Origin: a virus
UHGV virus genome: UHGV-0335561
DNA length: 60,270 nucleotides
Direction: 5' to 3' (one strand)
The notes below the pieces were generated by a model. The model ran no database searches, was not told the DNA's origin, and saw nothing but the letters and a program-made list of their open reading frames with translations. How positions within the stretch are numbered: position 1 is the first letter of the stretch; each line of letters opens with the position of its first letter. Of the stretch, positions 13,128 to 55,184 are shown one piece after another. The translations under genes and the position numbers were made by a program.

Positions 13128-15795
13128 ATGGGTAAAGGCAGCAGTAAGGGGCATACCCCGCGCGAAGCGAAGGACAACCTGAAGTCCACGCAGCTGCTGA
13201 GTGTGATCGATGCCATCAGCGAAGGGCCGGTTGAAGGTCCGGTGGATGGATTAAAAAGCGTGCTGCTGAACAGTACGCCGGTGCTGGACAGTGAGGGGAA
13301 TACCAATATATCCGGCGTCACGGTGGTGTTCCGGGCCGGTGAGCAGGAGCAGTCACCGCCGGAGGGATTTGAATCCTCCGGCTCCGAGACGGTGCTGGGT
13401 ACGGAAGTGAAATATGACACGCCGATCACCCGGACCATCACGTCGGCAAACATCGACCGTCTGCGCTTTACCTTCGGTGTACAGGCACTGGTGGAAACCA
13501 CCTCAAAGGGAGACAGGAATCCGTCGGAAGTTCGCCTGCTGGTTCAGATACAGCGTAACGGTGGCTGGGTGACGGAAAAAGACATCACCATTAAGGGCAA
13601 AACCACCTCGCAGTATCTGGCCTCGGTGGTGGTGGATAACCTGCCGCCGCGCCCGTTTAATATCCGGATGCGCAGGATGACGCCGGACAGCACCACAGAC
13701 CAGCTGCTGAACAAAACGCTCTGGTCGTCATACACCGAAATCATCGATGTGAAACAGTGCTACCCGAACACGGCACTGGTTGGCGTGCAGGTGGACTCGG
13801 AGCAGTTCGGCAGCCAGCAGGTGAGCCGTAATTATCATCTTCGCGGGCGCATTCTGCAGGTGCCGTCGAACTATAACCCGCAGACGCGGCAATACAGCGG
13901 TATCTGGGACGGAACGTTAAAACCGGCATACAGCAACAACATGGCCTGGTGTCTGTGGGATATGCTGACCCATCCGCGCTACGGCATGGGGAAACGTCTT
14001 GGTGCGGCGGATGTGGATAAATGGGCGCTGTATGTCATCGGCCAGTACTGCGACCAGTCGGTGCCGGACGGCTTTGGCGGCACGGAGCCGCGCATTACCT
14101 GTAATGCGTACCTGACCACACAGCGCAAGGCGTGGGATGTGCTCAGTGATTTCTGCTCGGCGATGCGCTGTATGCCGGTATGGAACGGGCAGACGCTGAC
14201 GTTCGTGCAGGACCGACCATCAGATAAGGTGTGGACCTATAACCGCAGTAATGTGGTGATGCCGGATGATGGCGCGCCGTTCCGCTACAGCTTCAGCGCC
14301 CTGAAGGACCGCCATAATGCCGTTGAGGTGAACTGGATTGACCCGGATAACGGCTGGGAGACGGCGACAGAGCTCGTGGAGGATACGCAGGCCATTGCCC
14401 GTTACGGCCGTAACGTCACGAAGATGGATGCCTTTGGCTGTACCAGCCGGGGGCAGGCACACCGCGCCGGGCTGTGGCTGATTAAAACGGAGCTGCTGGA
14501 AACGCAGACCGTGGACTTCAGCGTGGGTGCTGAAGGGCTTCGCCATGTACCGGGGGATGTCATTGAAATCTGCGATGATGACTATGCCGGTATCAGCACC
14601 GGTGGTCGTGTGCTGGCGGTGAACAGCCAGACCCGGACGCTGACGCTCGACCGTGAAATCACGCTGCCATCCTCCGGTACCACGCTGATAAGCCTGGTTG
14701 ACGGAAGTGGCAATCCGGTCAGCGTGGAGGTTCAGTCCGTCACCGACGGCGTGAAGGTGAAAGTGAGCCGTGTTCCTGACGGTGTTGCTGAATACAGCGT
14801 ATGGGGGCTGAAGCTGCCGACGCTGCGCCAGCGACTGTTCCGCTGCGTGAGTATCCGTGAAAACGACGACGGCACGTATGCCATCACCGCCGTGCAGCAT
14901 GTGCCGGAAAAAGAGACCATCGTGGATAACGGGGCGCACTTTGACGGCGAACAGAGTGGCACGGTGAATGGTGTCACGCCGCCCGCGGTGCAGCACCTGA
15001 CCGCAGAAGTCACCGCAGACAGCGGGGAATATCAGGTGCTGGCGCGATGGGACACACCGAAGGTGGTGAAGGGGGTGAGCTTTATGCTTCGCCTGACCGT
15101 GGCAGCGGATGACGGCAGTGAGCGGCTGGTCAGCACGGCCAGGACGACGGAAACCACATACCGCTTCAGGCAACTGGCGCTGGGGAACTACAGGCTGACA
15201 GTCCGGGCGGTAAATGCGTGGGGGCAGCAGGGGGATCCGGCGTCGGTATCGTTCCGGATTGCCGCACCGGCAGCGCCATCGCGGATTGAGCTGACGCCGG
15301 GCTATTTTCAGATAACCGCAACGCCACATCTTGCCGTTTATGACCCGACGGTACAGTTTGAGTTCTGGTTCTCGGAAAAGCGGATTGCGGATATCAGGCA
15401 GGTTGAAACCGCAGCCCGCTATCTTGGCTCGGCGCTGTACTGGATAGCTGCCAGTATCAATATCAAACCGGGCCATGATTATTATTTTTATATCCGCAGT
15501 GTGAATACTGTTGGCAAATCGGCATTCGTGGAGGCTGTCGGTCGGGCGAGCGATGATGCGGAAGGTTACCTGGATTTTTTCAAAGGAGAAATCGGGAAAA
15601 CACATCTGGCCCAGGAGCTGTGGACGCAGATTGATAACGGTCAGCTTGCGCCGGACCTGGCTGAAATCAGGACGTCCATTACGAATGTCAGCAATGAAAT
15701 CACGCAGACCGTCAATAAAAAACTGGAAAATCAGAGTGCGGCAATCCAGCAGATACAGAAAGTTCAGGTTGATACAAATAATAACCTGAACAGCG
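13128..15795 (+). pseudogene. J: tail tip/host-specificity protein J, truncated (C-terminal receptor-binding part missing)
   Basis: Lambda gpJ-like to about residue 890 (...[15 protein letters not shown]), then the frame runs into the reverse complement of the second J; the track ORF 13128-16154 is read-through. Confidence 0.88.
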
Positions 15796-17978
15796 GTTAT
15801 CTGAAAATAGCCCGGCGTCAGCTCAATCCGCGACGGTGCTGCCGGTGCGGCAATCCGGAAGGTGGTGGTGGCAGGTTCACCCTGCTGGCCATAGCTGTTT
15901 ATCGCCCGCACCGTCAGGGTGTATTCCCCGAGCGGCAGGCCGCTGAAACGGTGCTCCGTGTCTGCGGTGATGGCGGTGGTCACCAGTCTGGCATCCGTTC
16001 CCTTACCACTGGTCAGGCGCAGACTGAAGCGCACACCCTTCACCACCCGCGGCGTGTCCCATTTCGCCTGCGCCAGATACTGGCCGTCAGCTGCGCTCAC
16101 CTCCACCGTCAGGTGCTGCACTGCCGGTGGGATGACGCTGTTCAGGGAACCTGACTGCGGCTCAAAGCGGGCACCGTTATCCACGATGGCTTCTTTTTCC
16201 GGTACGTGCTGCACCGCCGTGATGGCAAAGGTGCCGTCCGTGTTTTCCCGGATGGAGACACAGCGGAACAGGCGACGGCGCAGTGACGGCAGGGAGAGTC
16301 CCCACACCCCGTATGTCTCCACACCATCAGGCAGGGTACTGACCTGTATCCGGTCCGGCGCGGGGTGTGCGGTGATGTCCACACTCACCGGCTTACCGCT
16401 GCCGTTAATCAGGTTCACCGCCGATGTACCTGTCTCCGGCAGGGTAACCTCACGGTCCAGCGTCAGGGTGCGGGTGGCAGCATCAATGGACAGGACACGT
16501 CCGCCGGTCAGGGTCCCGGCATAGTCATTATCACAGATTTCAATAATGTCACCGGGTGTGTGCCGCAGCCCCTGAGACCCGAGCGTGAAATCCACCGTCT
16601 GCGTTTCCAGCAGTTCGGTCTTTATCACCCACAGTCCGGCACGGTGGGCCTGACCGCGGCTGGTACAGCCGAACGCGTCCATCTTCAGCAGGTTGCGTCC
16701 GTAGCGCAGTATGGCTTCCGGGTCTTCCACCAGTTCCGTGGAGGTCTGCCAGCCGTTCTGCGGGTCGGTGTAATTCACCTCCACCGCCGTGTGCCGGTCC
16801 TTCAGGGCACTGAAGCTGTAGCGGAATCCCACGCCGTTATCATCCACCACCACATCGCTGTTGGTGTACGGCCACACCACATCCGACGGGCGGTCCTGAA
16901 CGAACGTCAGCGTCTGACCGTTCCATACCGGCATACAGCGCATCGCAGAGCAGAAATCACTGAGAACGTCCCACGCCTTACGCTGTTGTGCCAGGTACGC
17001 ATTAAAGGTCATCCGCGGCTCGGTCCCCCCGAAACCATCCGGGACCGTCTGGTCGCAGTACTGCCCGATGGCATACAGCGCCCACTTGTCCACATCCGCC
17101 GCCCCCAGACGTTTTCCCATGCCGTAGCGCGGGTGAGTCAGCATGTCCCACAGACACCAGGCCGGGTTGTTGCTGTATGCCGGTTTCAGACTGCCGTCCC
17201 AGATACCACTATACGTGCGTTTTTCCGGGTCATAGTTTGACGGCACCTGGATGATGCGACCGCGGATATGGTAGTTCACCGTCATCTGCTGGCCGCCGAA
17301 CTGCTCCGCATCCACCTGCAGCCCCACAATGGCCGTGTTCGGGTAGCACTGTTTCACATCGATGATTTCGGTGTATGACGACCACAGCGTCTTATTCTGC
17401 AGCTGGTCCGTGGTGCTGTCCGCCGTCTCCCTGACCATCCGGATGTTAAAGGGCCGGGGAGGCAGATTATCCAGAATCACCGAGGCCAGGAACTGTGAGG
17501 TGGTCTTGCCGTTAATGGTGACGTCCTTTTCTGTCACCCAGTTACCGTTACGCTGTAACTGAATCAGCAGGCGGACGGATGCCGGGTTACGGTCACCCTT
17601 TGAGGTGGTCTCCACCAGTGACTGCACCCCGAAGGTAACCCGCAGGCGGTCAATGTTCGCGGACGTAATGGTGCGCGTCACCGGTTTTGCCTTCGTCACT
17701 TCCACGCCCAGTCCGGTTTCAGCTCCGGAGGACTCAAAGCCTTCCGGTGGTGTCTGCTCCTGCTCCCCGGCGCGCCAGACCGCCGTCACACCGTGTATCA
17801 CGGGATTGCCGTCCGTGTCCGTCAGTGGGGTTTTGTTCACCAGAATACTCTGCAGTCCCTTCACCGGACCTTCTATCGGTCCCTCACCAATCGCATCAAT
17901 CACGCTCATCATCTGCGTGGATTTGAGATTATCCTTCGCCTCACGAGGCGTGTGTGCCTTACCGCCACCTTTTCCCAT
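15796..17978 (-). pseudogene. J: second tail tip/host-specificity protein J, truncated after about residue 728
   Basis: [26 protein letters not shown]..., roughly 75-80% identical to the first J by eye; ends at ...[13 protein letters not shown], then reverse complement of the first J. Confidence 0.88.
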
Positions 17979-18183
17979 ACAGCCTTCCCCTGAATAAATT
18001 AACCGCCACTTGCCATTCCGTACAGAAGTCGGATATCCTTCGCCCGAAAAGCATGAAACACATTTCTGCCATGCTAAAGAGAAACCCCGGTATCAGCAGA
18101 TACCGGGGTTTTCTTTCATGCCCACCGATAATCCTGTTGGTTAAAACCGGTAATGGCATAAAAATTCTGAATATCTTCACATT

Positions 18184-18211
18184 TTCACACACTGACTGTG
18201 GCGCTTATAAT
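18184..18211 (+). promoter_or_regulatory. sigma70-like promoter (TTCACA, 16-bp spacer, TATAAT) in the I-J intergenic insert
   Basis: Perfect -10 TATAAT with a 5/6 -35; points toward a downstream hairpin plus T-tract. Confidence 0.4.
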
Positions 18212-18214
18212 TTC

Positions 18215-18316
18215 GCTGCGTTAGTGTTTTTTTGCCCGAGTAACAAAAACAACTCCTTAACATTGATCTTCATTTGTCTGTCCCCGCAGCTCCGCGATCA
18301 CTGCGGGATTTTTTTA
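18215..18316 (+). ncRNA. candidate small RNA (promoter-to-terminator unit of about 100 nt), antisense to the late operon
   Basis: Bounded by the promoter above and a GC hairpin (CCCGCAG...CTGCGGG) followed by a run of T; no convincing ORF. Confidence 0.3.
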
Positions 18317-18320
18317 TGTT

Positions 18321-19001
18321 TTATCCCTGTCGCCCGATAACCACGACCGTTCCGCCCCCGCCTTCATCACGGGTGCTGATGTCCTGGGATATACGGCGGG
18401 AGCCAACCAGCATTTCCCCGTAAGGCACCGGCATCGGGTTCCCCTGGGCAATCATGTTATCCAGCGAGGAAAAGTACGTGTTCTGTCTGCCGTTATCCGT
18501 TGCGCGGTAATCCGGTGTTTTTGCCTTCGGGGCCAGCATCTGGGCCACACCGCCCAGAATCATGCTGGCTCCAAGTGAAAACAGCATCGTGGTGGCAGAA
18601 AAACCACCGGCTGCCAGGGCTGAACCCCATAACGCCATTGATGCCCCGGCAGTGAAGAAAGAGCCCACGATGGCTGCCGCCCCCAGCACAATCTGCAGTC
18701 CACCCTTTCCGGCCCCGGCCAGTCGCGGCACAATATGGATGACCGTTCCCTCACCCAGCTGTTCGTGAAGACGGGCGTACACCGCCTCCGGTGCCGTGTC
18801 ATAACCGGCAATACGTATCTGGTACCAGCCTTCGTTCATCTGACGGCGAAAGCCCGGCACCTGTAACGACAGCGCCCGGATGGCTTCCGCTGCCGTGTTC
18901 ACATACAGGCTGAGGCGGCGGCCAAATCGTTGTAAATCCCCGTGAAGGCAGATGCGTGCCAGTGGCGGTGACGCCAGACAGAATGCGTTCGTCGTTGCCA
19001 T
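18321..19001 (-). CDS. I: tail tip assembly protein I
   Basis: 226 aa ...ARICLHGDLQRFGRR..., lambda gpI homolog. Confidence 0.9.
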   Translation of the reverse strand: MATTNAFCLASPPLARICLHGDLQRFGRRLSLYVNTAAEAIRALSLQVPGFRRQMNEGWYQIRIAGYDTAPEAVYARLHEQLGEGTVIHIVPRLAGAGKGGLQIVLGAAAIVGSFFTAGASMALWGSALAAGGFSATTMLFSLGASMILGGVAQMLAPKAKTPDYRATDNGRQNTYFSSLDNMIAQGNPMPVPYGEMLVGSRRISQDISTRDEGGGGTVVVIGRQG

Positions 19002-54862: not shown

Positions 54863-55184
54863 GGTGTGGCCCCTTGTGTAGTAAGTTGTGAAAACTCACC
54901 ATCCAGAGCTGCGAAACTGTGGGTGGCGAGACGTACGAGGTTCGCAGTACCGGCTACACAAGAACCCGGCCCGACCGAAGTCGGCCCCGTACGCCCCGCC
55001 ATAATTCTGACGCGAAAAAAACGTGGCAATACAGTACGCACAAAAAAACCGCTGGCGCGGTTGTGCGCTTGTGTAGTCAGCAGGCTGCGAAACCCGGCAC
55101 CCGTTTTATGAGGTGCAGCGGAAATGTAACCTGACTGATTGCGGCATGGCAAGCGGTTTTTTTGTGTGTGCATGCTCTGGTTTC

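What the first reader, a model, noticed from the sequence alone, without database searches (positions are those of the whole stretch)
17979..18320. About 340-bp insert between tail genes I and J carrying a strong promoter and terminators antisense to the late operon: candidate prophage sRNA
Lambda has roughly 60 bp between I and J by my recollection; this copy has about 340 bp with a near-consensus sigma70 promoter (TTCACA, 16 bp, TATAAT) on the + strand, a hairpin plus T-tract about 100 nt downstream, and a second strong hairpin. There is no credible ORF, so it looks like an independently transcribed small RNA, as lambdoid prophages are known to carry.
Basis: seen in the sequence. Interest (0 to 1): 0.5.

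Follow-up and report, generated by a model that had tools for sequence, protein, structure and literature searches.

The report
Known prophage small RNA PasB

Summary
The gap between tail genes I (18321-19001, -) and J (14220-17978, -) is 342 bp, against 60 bp in lambda. On the + strand it carries the only near-consensus sigma-70 promoter in the window (TTCACA-16-TATAAT, 18184-18211). An intrinsic terminator follows (stem 18283-18289/18301-18307, seven T at 18309-18315).

This promoter-to-terminator unit is the known sRNA gene pasB. Window 18233-18315 matches 82 of 83 nt of PasB of EPEC E2348/69. The one difference, C to A at position 27, is the published difference between PasB and its variant PasB-2. 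The published Northern probe matches exactly, and PasB lies in the same I-J gap, antisense to the tail genes. In that strain PasB is Hfq-dependent and forms RIL-seq chimeras with 37 partner RNAs.

The EHEC sRNAs EcOnc22/23/24 (about 85 nt, Hfq-dependent) appear to be diverged relatives in the same gap.

The J-proximal half (17979-18157) is not part of PasB. It looks like a decayed second cassette with a strong two-way hairpin.

Beyond the cited papers: the RNA body is far more variable than its near-identical flanks, and some phages carry 2-4 tandem cassettes sharing a conserved promoter box.

Verdict: real, correctly interpreted, already known.

The parts
18233..18315 (+). pasB (variant PasB-2), the 83-nt sRNA as annotated in E2348/69
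   Evidence: 82 of 83 nt identical to NC_011601.1 1466343..1466261 (-). The only difference is C to A at position 27. Zhu et al. give a change at position 27 as the difference between PasB and PasB-2. The Northern probe AATCCCGCAGTGATCGCGGAGCT is the exact reverse complement of 18288-18310.
18218..18316 (+). Predicted primary transcript (about 96-99 nt), if transcription starts 7 nt after the -10 hexamer at the conserved GCGTTA
   Evidence: Inferred from promoter geometry. GCGTTA is conserved at this position in nearly all cassettes. The published 5' end (window 18233) came from RNA-seq coverage and band size, so the true start is not settled.
18184..18211 (+). Sigma-70 promoter TTCACA-16-TATAAT
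   Evidence: 11 of 12 consensus positions. The only site this good in the 60-kb window. The -10 hexamer is kept as TATAAT, AATAAT, CATAAT or TATCAT across cassettes, while the -35 is weak in several subtypes.
18160..18184 (+). Conserved upstream box AAAAATTCTGAATATCTTCACATTT, containing TCTGA-N6-TCACA at 18166-18181
   Evidence: Invariant across 18165-18189 in 11 BLAST-recovered copies. Nearly invariant in about 60 cassettes and better conserved than the -35/-10 spacer, although those cassettes were collected with the box core as the search pattern. It matches 9 of 10 core positions of the CRP consensus, but its centre is at -44.5 from the predicted start. Its function is unknown.
18250..18282 (+). 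Predicted single-stranded region and likely seed. It contains ACUCCUUAA (18252-18260) and GAUCUUC (18265-18271).
   Evidence: Unpaired in the centroid fold. ATCTT is invariant in the 11 BLAST-recovered copies. Zhu et al. place the PasB seed just upstream of the terminator.
18283..18315 (+). Intrinsic terminator and probable Hfq-binding 3' end: 7-bp stem, 11-nt loop, then A and seven U
   Evidence: The stem arms are invariant in all copies while the loop varies.
17979..18157 (.). Module A: the J-proximal segment, not part of PasB. Probably a decayed or strongly diverged second cassette.
   Evidence: Absent from E2348/69 and Sakai, where an approximately 85-bp leader with a late-strand hairpin takes its place; other phages carry sodC here. 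It aligns along its whole length with a cassette of L064/L069 (score 46-52 against 30 +/- 4.5 for shuffles; the best shuffles reached 46-48, so L064 exceeds all shuffles and L069 does not). The alignment places the terminator in the same position and includes a roughly 20-nt copy of the 3' end of gene I. The conserved promoter box is missing.
18010..18039 (+). Weak promoter-like site TTGCCA-18-TATCCT in module A
   Evidence: 9 of 12 consensus positions. Not evidence of function.
18082..18116 (.). Strong hairpin AAACCCCGGTATC-AGCA-GATACCGGGGTTT. It is followed by TTTTCTTT on the + strand and TTTCTCTTT on the - strand, so it looks like a terminator in both directions.
   Evidence: minimum free energy -32.2 kcal/mol for 18044-18122, z = -6.5. 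It is self-complementary in BLAST.
18321..19001 (-). Tail assembly gene I (flank)
   Evidence: PF06805, E = 2e-16.
14220..17978 (-). Tip attachment / host specificity gene J (flank)
   Evidence: PF24801, PF24421 and PF13550.

Best explanation
The I-proximal half of the gap (about 18160-18316, + strand) is a self-contained gene for PasB. PasB is an Hfq-dependent small RNA that acts in trans by base-pairing, and lambdoid prophages carry it between tail genes I and J, antisense to the late operon.

Transcription starts from its own sigma-70 promoter in the lysogen and stops at the intrinsic terminator, giving an RNA of about 83-98 nt. The U-rich 3' end and terminator hairpin bind Hfq. The unstructured stretch upstream of the terminator (ACUCCUUAACAUUGAUCUUCAUUUGUCUGU) pairs with host and prophage mRNAs.

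Shown by others in E2348/69: the transcript, its size, its loss without Hfq, and 37 RIL-seq partners. Shown here: the window copy is that gene (variant PasB-2) in the same place. Inferred: the start site, the seed, and that this copy is expressed in its own host.

The J-proximal half (17979-18157) is a separate, probably decayed, cassette of the same kind.
For: Identity: 82 of 83 nt to PasB, and an exact match to the probe target.

Context: PasB in E2348/69 lies between the tail assembly protein (ends 1466255) and gpJ (starts 1466496), on the opposite strand. The window has the same arrangement.

Published experiments: a Northern band of the predicted size with Hfq-dependent stability; higher expression in overnight static LB than in DMEM; 37 interactions, ranked 15th in the RIL-seq network; and DESeq2 log2 fold changes of -6.8 and -2.4 in the wild-type versus hfq-deletion comparison.

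Conservation: promoter, 5' GCGTTA, the AUCUU box and the terminator arms are invariant in 11 copies and largely kept in about 60 distinct cassettes.

Independent detection of a relative: 23 of the 33 nt of the EcOnc22/23/24 Northern probe match exactly the homologous gene in the Sakai Sp15 I-J gap. That RNA is about 85 nt and is destabilised without Hfq.

No conserved ORF on either strand.
Against: No expression data exist for this particular genome.

The published 5' end (window 18233) is 15 nt downstream of the start predicted from the -10 hexamer, so either the RNA is processed or one of the two estimates is off.

No PasB target has been validated and its physiological role is unknown.

No common target motif is listed for PasB in the paper's motif table: the supplementary-file search found no PasB entry there.

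Only the terminator is structurally robust. A 5' hairpin predicted for PasB is not kept in other subtypes, and no compensatory changes were found.
Confidence: 0.9

Rival explanations
1. PasB acts mainly in cis. Because it is fully complementary to the I-J junction of the late transcript, it would pair with that mRNA, or its transcription would collide with late transcription. Either would lower or process J expression, or silence stray late transcription in the lysogen.
For: The gene is always in the same place and always antisense to the late operon. The RNA body varies freely (69-87% identity) between otherwise near-identical prophages. That is expected if only complementarity to its own locus matters.
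Against: [quoted passage not shown] Short motifs inside the body (AUCUUC, CUCCUU) are conserved across subtypes, which a purely cis role does not require. In many lysogens the late operon is silent while PasB is abundant. The two roles are not mutually exclusive.
Confidence: 0.15
2. The gap encodes a small protein: either the 128-codon ORF on the + strand (17954-18340) or the 77-codon ORF on the - strand (17959-18192) that one phage record annotates as hypothetical.
For: A stop-free frame spans the whole gap in this copy. ASU11 and PhiR12_1 carry 'hypothetical protein' annotations in the gap.
Against: The open frames are not kept in related copies (99, 63 and 45 codons). Indels that are not multiples of three are common, and one relative has a 1-nt deletion in module A. 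There is no ribosome-binding site before the candidate starts and no Pfam match. The frames run through two terminator hairpins.
Confidence: 0.02
3. Module A (17979-18157) is a second, undescribed sRNA gene. It would be transcribed from TTGCCA-18-TATCCT (18010-18039) and end at the 18082-18116 hairpin, giving an RNA of about 70-75 nt with a 5' stem-loop, an A-rich linker and a U-rich tail.
For: It has the layout of an sRNA gene. It is homologous along its length to a true cassette, with the terminator in the same position. The A+B arrangement is present in 1445 of 5426 complete E. coli genomes.
Against: The promoter match is weak (9 of 12) and the family's conserved promoter box is deleted. 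The segment is 100% identical in all copies seen, so conservation says nothing. There is no expression evidence, and E2348/69 and Sakai lack it, so published Hfq data cannot speak to it. The hairpin looks like a terminator on both strands and may simply insulate.
Confidence: 0.25

Closest known systems
PasB (pathogenicity-associated sRNA B) of EPEC E2348/69 prophage PP6. Sources: Pearl Mizrahi et al. 2021, Sci Adv, PMC8550237; distribution in Zhu, Shabalina and Storz 2026, bioRxiv 10.64898/2026.05.13.724894.
   Same: 82 of 83 nt identical. Exact probe target. Same I-J intergenic position, same antisense orientation, same promoter and terminator.
   Different: One substitution (position 27, C to A), matching the stated position-27 difference between PasB and PasB-2. 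On the J side the window has a 179-bp module A, where E2348/69 has an approximately 85-bp leader with a late-strand hairpin.
EcOnc22/23/24 of EHEC O157:H7 Sakai prophages Sp15, Sp14 and Sp11 (Tree et al. 2014, Mol Cell, PMC4104026)
   Same: Only the Sp15 copy was fetched and compared. It has the same I-J gap, the same strand relative to the tail genes, the same conserved promoter box, the 5' GC(G/A)TTA, the GUUAAUCUUC box and the CCCGCAG...CUGCGGG-U7 terminator. The RNA is about 85 nt and is destabilised without Hfq.
   Different: The RNA body is strongly diverged, and the probe target is not present in the window (longest shared run 9-10 nt). The PasB entry in table S6 of the 2021 paper lists no EHEC homologue, so the link appears not to have been drawn there.
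AgvB and AsxR anti-sRNAs of EHEC prophages
   Same: Prophage-encoded, Hfq-binding short RNAs carried at a site that tolerates extra DNA, in families with conserved ends and a variable targeting part.
   Different: They lie downstream of the Q-dependent PR' promoter rather than in the tail region. They are 51-60 nt and share a different conserved 3' domain. The window gives no Rfam match to them at each family's curated gathering score, and none appears in the gap region down to E = 10.
sodC moron of O157 and related lambdoid prophages
   Same: Occupies the same I-J gap on the same strand, with its own terminator. This shows that the gap is a regular site for added, independently expressed genes.
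   Different: It is a protein-coding gene. It replaces module A and sits beside the pasB-like gene, not in its place.

Membership tests
PasB sRNA | Sequence match to the 83-nt PasB of E2348/69 | tested here: met
   82 of 83 nt identical at window 18233-18315.
PasB sRNA | Target of the published Northern probe | tested here: met
   Exact reverse complement at 18288-18310.
PasB sRNA | Lies within a phage structural operon, between tail genes I and J, on the opposite strand | tested here: met
   E2348/69 locus; window.
PasB sRNA | [quoted passage not shown] | tested here: met
   7-bp stem plus seven U.
PasB sRNA | Transcript present and dependent on Hfq in the source strain | not testable with these tools
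   Shown only for E2348/69.
EcOnc22/23/24 | Target of the published Northern probe | tested here: not met
   The probe target shares at most 9-10 nt in a row with the window. By contrast, 23 of its 33 nt match Sakai Sp15 exactly. The window copy is a relative, not this RNA.
EcOnc22/23/24 | Same locus and gene layout (promoter box, 5' GCGTTA, AUCUUC box, terminator) | tested here: met
AgvB / AsxR anti-sRNAs (RF02702, RF02703) | Match to the Rfam covariance model, and position downstream of PR' | tested here: not met
   No hit in the window at the gathering score, and none in the region up to E = 10. The position is the tail region.
Class II CRP-dependent promoter | CRP site centred near -41.5 | tested here: inconclusive
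   TCTGA-N6-TCACA matches 9 of 10 core positions and is conserved, but its centre is at -44.5 from the predicted start. The start has not been mapped.

The most novel reading that the evidence does not exclude
The I-J gap of lambdoid prophages is a modular sRNA cassette site. Each unit has one conserved promoter box and one conserved terminator around an interchangeable RNA body. Units can be swapped between otherwise identical prophages, stacked into arrays of up to four, or left to decay, as module A may have been. PasB and EcOnc22/23/24 would be just two members of this larger family, under one shared but unidentified regulator. The papers consulted here do not describe this: they treat PasB as showing few nucleotide differences and as usually occurring singly. 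If module A were also expressed, the window would carry a second, undescribed sRNA.
Probability: 0.4. Interest if true: 0.4.

Novelty: already known. Interest (0 to 1): 0.15.

Why it matters
For this window it matters little: the feature can simply be annotated as pasB (PasB-2 variant).

It does show that reading promoter and terminator signals by eye can recover a real sRNA gene that neither Rfam 15 nor genome annotation marks. None of the 30 E. coli genome hits listed carried any annotated feature at the match.

The wider pattern may be worth a short follow-up for people working on prophage sRNAs. The RNA body is hypervariable between conserved ends, some phages carry arrays, and two separately named sRNAs from two pathotypes appear to belong to one family.

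Tried and rejected
- **Rfam:** no family matches the gap at the gathering score. The best permissive hit (SSRC34_2, 27 bits against a cut-off of 48) only reflects the module A hairpin.
- **AgvB/AsxR:** considered first from memory, then rejected, because they lie at the PR' site and differ in sequence.
- **EcOnc54 in Sakai Sp6:** this is in a different gap, between L and K.
- **Coding potential:** rejected.
- **A conserved 5' hairpin (U-run pairing with A-run):** predicted for PasB itself but not kept in other subtypes. RNAalifold keeps only the terminator, and no pair shows a compensatory change.
- **Other regulator sites for the conserved box:** compared from memory with Cra, ArgR, OmpR, FNR and lambda CII sites; none fits. 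CRP fits in sequence but not in spacing.
- **Module A elsewhere:** it occurs only in PPompW-type phages in the phage collection, always at 100% identity. The 'second place' in each record is just the hairpin matching itself.
- **Genome-contig scan:** five of the ten hits were chance matches to unrelated terminators.

Full report
**Observation**

The late (tail) genes run on the - strand. Gene I is 18321-19001 and gene J is 14220-17978. Pfam confirms both: Lambda_tail_I for I, and the GpJ FNIII-A, Ig_J and Phage-tail_3 domains for J. The space between them is 17979-18320, 342 bp. Lambda has 60 bp there.

The + strand carries TTCACA-16-TATAAT at 18184-18211. This is the only site matching 11 of 12 consensus positions or better on either strand of the 60-kb window; shuffled sequence gives 0.23 on average.

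About 70 nt downstream of the -10 hexamer comes a 7-bp GC-rich stem (18283-18289 with 18301-18307). It is followed by A and seven T, and ends 5 nt before the I stop codon.

A second, stronger hairpin (18082-18111, followed by TTTTCTTT) lies upstream of the promoter.

**Two modules**

BLAST against phage records and 5,426 complete E. coli genomes splits the gap in two.

- Bases 18158-18320 (promoter, transcript and terminator) recur in many lambdoid prophages.
- Bases 17979-18157 ('module A') occur only in one lineage (PPompW-type prophages). The full 342-bp arrangement is nevertheless found in 1445 of the 5426 genomes.
- In other prophages the J-proximal part is different. It is either an approximately 85-bp leader with a hairpin on the late strand, or the superoxide dismutase gene sodC with its own terminator.

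**Identity of the I-proximal module**

Literature searching led to the Pas sRNAs of EPEC E2348/69.

- Table S6 of Pearl Mizrahi et al. gives PasB as NC_011601.1, - strand, 1466343 to 1466261, 83 nt, in prophage PP6, with Northern probe AATCCCGCAGTGATCGCGGAGCT.
- That interval lies between the tail assembly gene (ending at 1466255) and gpJ (starting at 1466496), both on the + strand.
- Window 18233-18315 matches 82 of the 83 nt, and the probe is the exact reverse complement of 18288-18310.
- The single difference is C to A at position 27. Zhu et al. name a change at position 27 as the difference between PasB and PasB-2.

The window therefore carries pasB, variant PasB-2.

**What is known about PasB**

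- In E2348/69 it gives a Northern band of the predicted size whose stability depends on Hfq.
- It is higher in overnight static LB than in DMEM.
- It is the second RNA in Hfq RIL-seq chimeras with 37 partners from the core and accessory genome.
- It falls sharply in the wild-type versus hfq-deletion comparison, with log2 fold changes of -6.8 and -2.4 in the two tables.
- No target has been validated. Zhu et al. place the likely seed in the single-stranded stretch just before the terminator. In the window that is about 18250-18282, unpaired in the centroid fold.
- Rfam 15 has no model for it, and none of the 30 E. coli genome hits listed carried any annotated feature at the match.

**A diverged relative was found earlier**

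Tree et al. list EcOnc22/23/24 in Sakai prophages Sp15, Sp14 and Sp11: about 85 nt and destabilised without Hfq. I fetched only the Sp15 locus. Its listed coordinate falls in the Sp15 I-J gap, on the strand antisense to the tail genes.

That gap holds a gene with the same promoter box, 5' GCATTA, GTTAATCTTC box and CCCGCAG...CTGCGGG-T7 terminator as pasB, but a different body. The reverse complement of the EcOnc22/23/24 probe shares 23 consecutive nt (of 33) with it.

The PasB entry in table S6 of the 2021 paper lists no EHEC homologue, so this link seems not to have been drawn there.

**Family survey**

Among species-representative genomes it found two Escherichia albertii contigs and three probable contaminant contigs.

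Collecting units by promoter box plus T-run gave about 60 distinct cassettes. These cassettes show the following:

- a nearly invariant box AAAA(A/T)TTCTGAAnnTCTTCACATTT upstream of a variable, often weak, -35, although the core of this box was the search pattern;
- a -10 hexamer, then GCGTTA;
- a U-run, an A-rich stretch and a C/U-rich motif (often CUCCUUA);
- in most, GUUAAUCUUC and the terminator.

At least six body types exist, including one with a different terminator.

Structure prediction supports only the terminator. The 5' hairpin predicted for PasB is not kept in other types, and no compensatory changes were seen.

**Local hypervariability**

Two E. coli prophages are 97-100% identical to the window for 1.2 kb on either side, and 99-100% in module A. 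They are only 69-87% identical across the sRNA body. Either the body has been exchanged between conserved ends, or it evolves much faster than its surroundings.

**Arrays and decay**

Most loci have one cassette, but four have two, two have three and one has four in tandem.

In at least 13 sodC-type loci, a deletion of about 80 bp between TCTCTG repeats removes the promoter and joins the RNA body to the sodC 3' region.

**Module A**

Module A aligns along its whole length with one cassette type. The scores are 46 and 52, against 30 +/- 4.5 for shuffles; the best shuffles reached 46-48, so the L064 score exceeds all shuffles and the L069 score does not. The alignment places the terminator in the same position and includes a short copy of the 3' end of gene I, but the promoter box is missing.

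I read module A as a decayed or strongly diverged second cassette. Its hairpin looks like a terminator in both directions and may act as an insulator.

It could still be a live sRNA gene, using the weak TTGCCA-18-TATCCT site at 18010-18039. Every copy seen is identical, and neither strain with Hfq data carries it, so this stays open (about 0.25).

**Promoter box**

TCTGA-N6-TCACA (18166-18181) matches 9 of 10 core CRP positions and has the TTT flank. Higher PasB in glucose-free stationary LB would fit CRP activation. However, the centre is at -44.5 from the predicted start, 3 bp off the usual class II position, and the start has not been mapped. I leave this as a lead only.

**Rivals**

- A cis-antisense role against the I-J junction of the late mRNA is possible alongside the trans role. 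It fits the fixed position and the free-drifting body, but not the conserved internal motifs or the RIL-seq partners.
- Coding is rejected. The stop-free frame in this copy is not kept in relatives, indels break the frames, and there is no Pfam match.

**Verdict**

Interest is low for the finding itself. The cassette-family picture is a modest extension that I could not find in the papers consulted.

Noticed in passing
window 54919-55006 (-) and 55042-55116 (-): Rfam matches above the gathering score to C4 antisense RNA (RF01695, 83 bits) and isrK (RF01394, 65 bits), lying next to each other. This looks like an immunity or antirepressor control module of P1/Gifsy type.
   Followed up: no
L010 429-1357 (E. 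coli CFSAN004176), and Stx2c and Stx1a phage records: In these prophages the I-J gap holds sodC on the strand antisense to the tail genes, with its own terminator, in place of module A and next to a pasB-like gene. The gap is therefore a regular site for added genes.
   Followed up: partly
L024, L074, L022, L023, L094 (IMG/VR and other contigs): A deletion of about 80 bp between TCTCTG repeats removes the pasB-like promoter and joins the sRNA body directly to the sodC 3' region. Such copies are either silent or made from the sodC transcript.
   Followed up: partly
L069 (4 units), L060 and L064 (3 units), L026, L037, L075 (2 units): Tandem arrays of promoter-sRNA-terminator cassettes in the I-J gap. 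Each starts with the same promoter box. The bodies differ, and one body type has a different terminator (CTCCCGT...ACGGGAG).
   Followed up: partly
window 18179-18320 compared with L004 and L007: The sRNA body is 69-87% identical between prophages whose flanks are 97-100% identical over 1.2 kb on each side.
   Followed up: partly
L021 (Streptomyces flavalbus contig), L017 (Parendozoicomonas haliclonae, 460-nt contig), L022 (Clostridiales MAG): Short contigs filed under unrelated organisms carry E. coli-type pasB-like sequence. This is probably contamination of those assemblies.
   Followed up: no
L144 846-905 (lambda); L002, L005, L009, L011, L013 gaps: Lambda and the E2348/69-type gaps have a hairpin plus U-run on the late strand just upstream of J. 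L002 and L009 differ by a compensatory C:G to T:A change in its stem, so the hairpin seems to be maintained. Its role inside the late operon is unclear.
   Followed up: no
window 13128-16154 (+): A 1008-codon open frame antisense to gene J. This is most likely a by-product of the codon composition of J rather than a gene.
   Followed up: no
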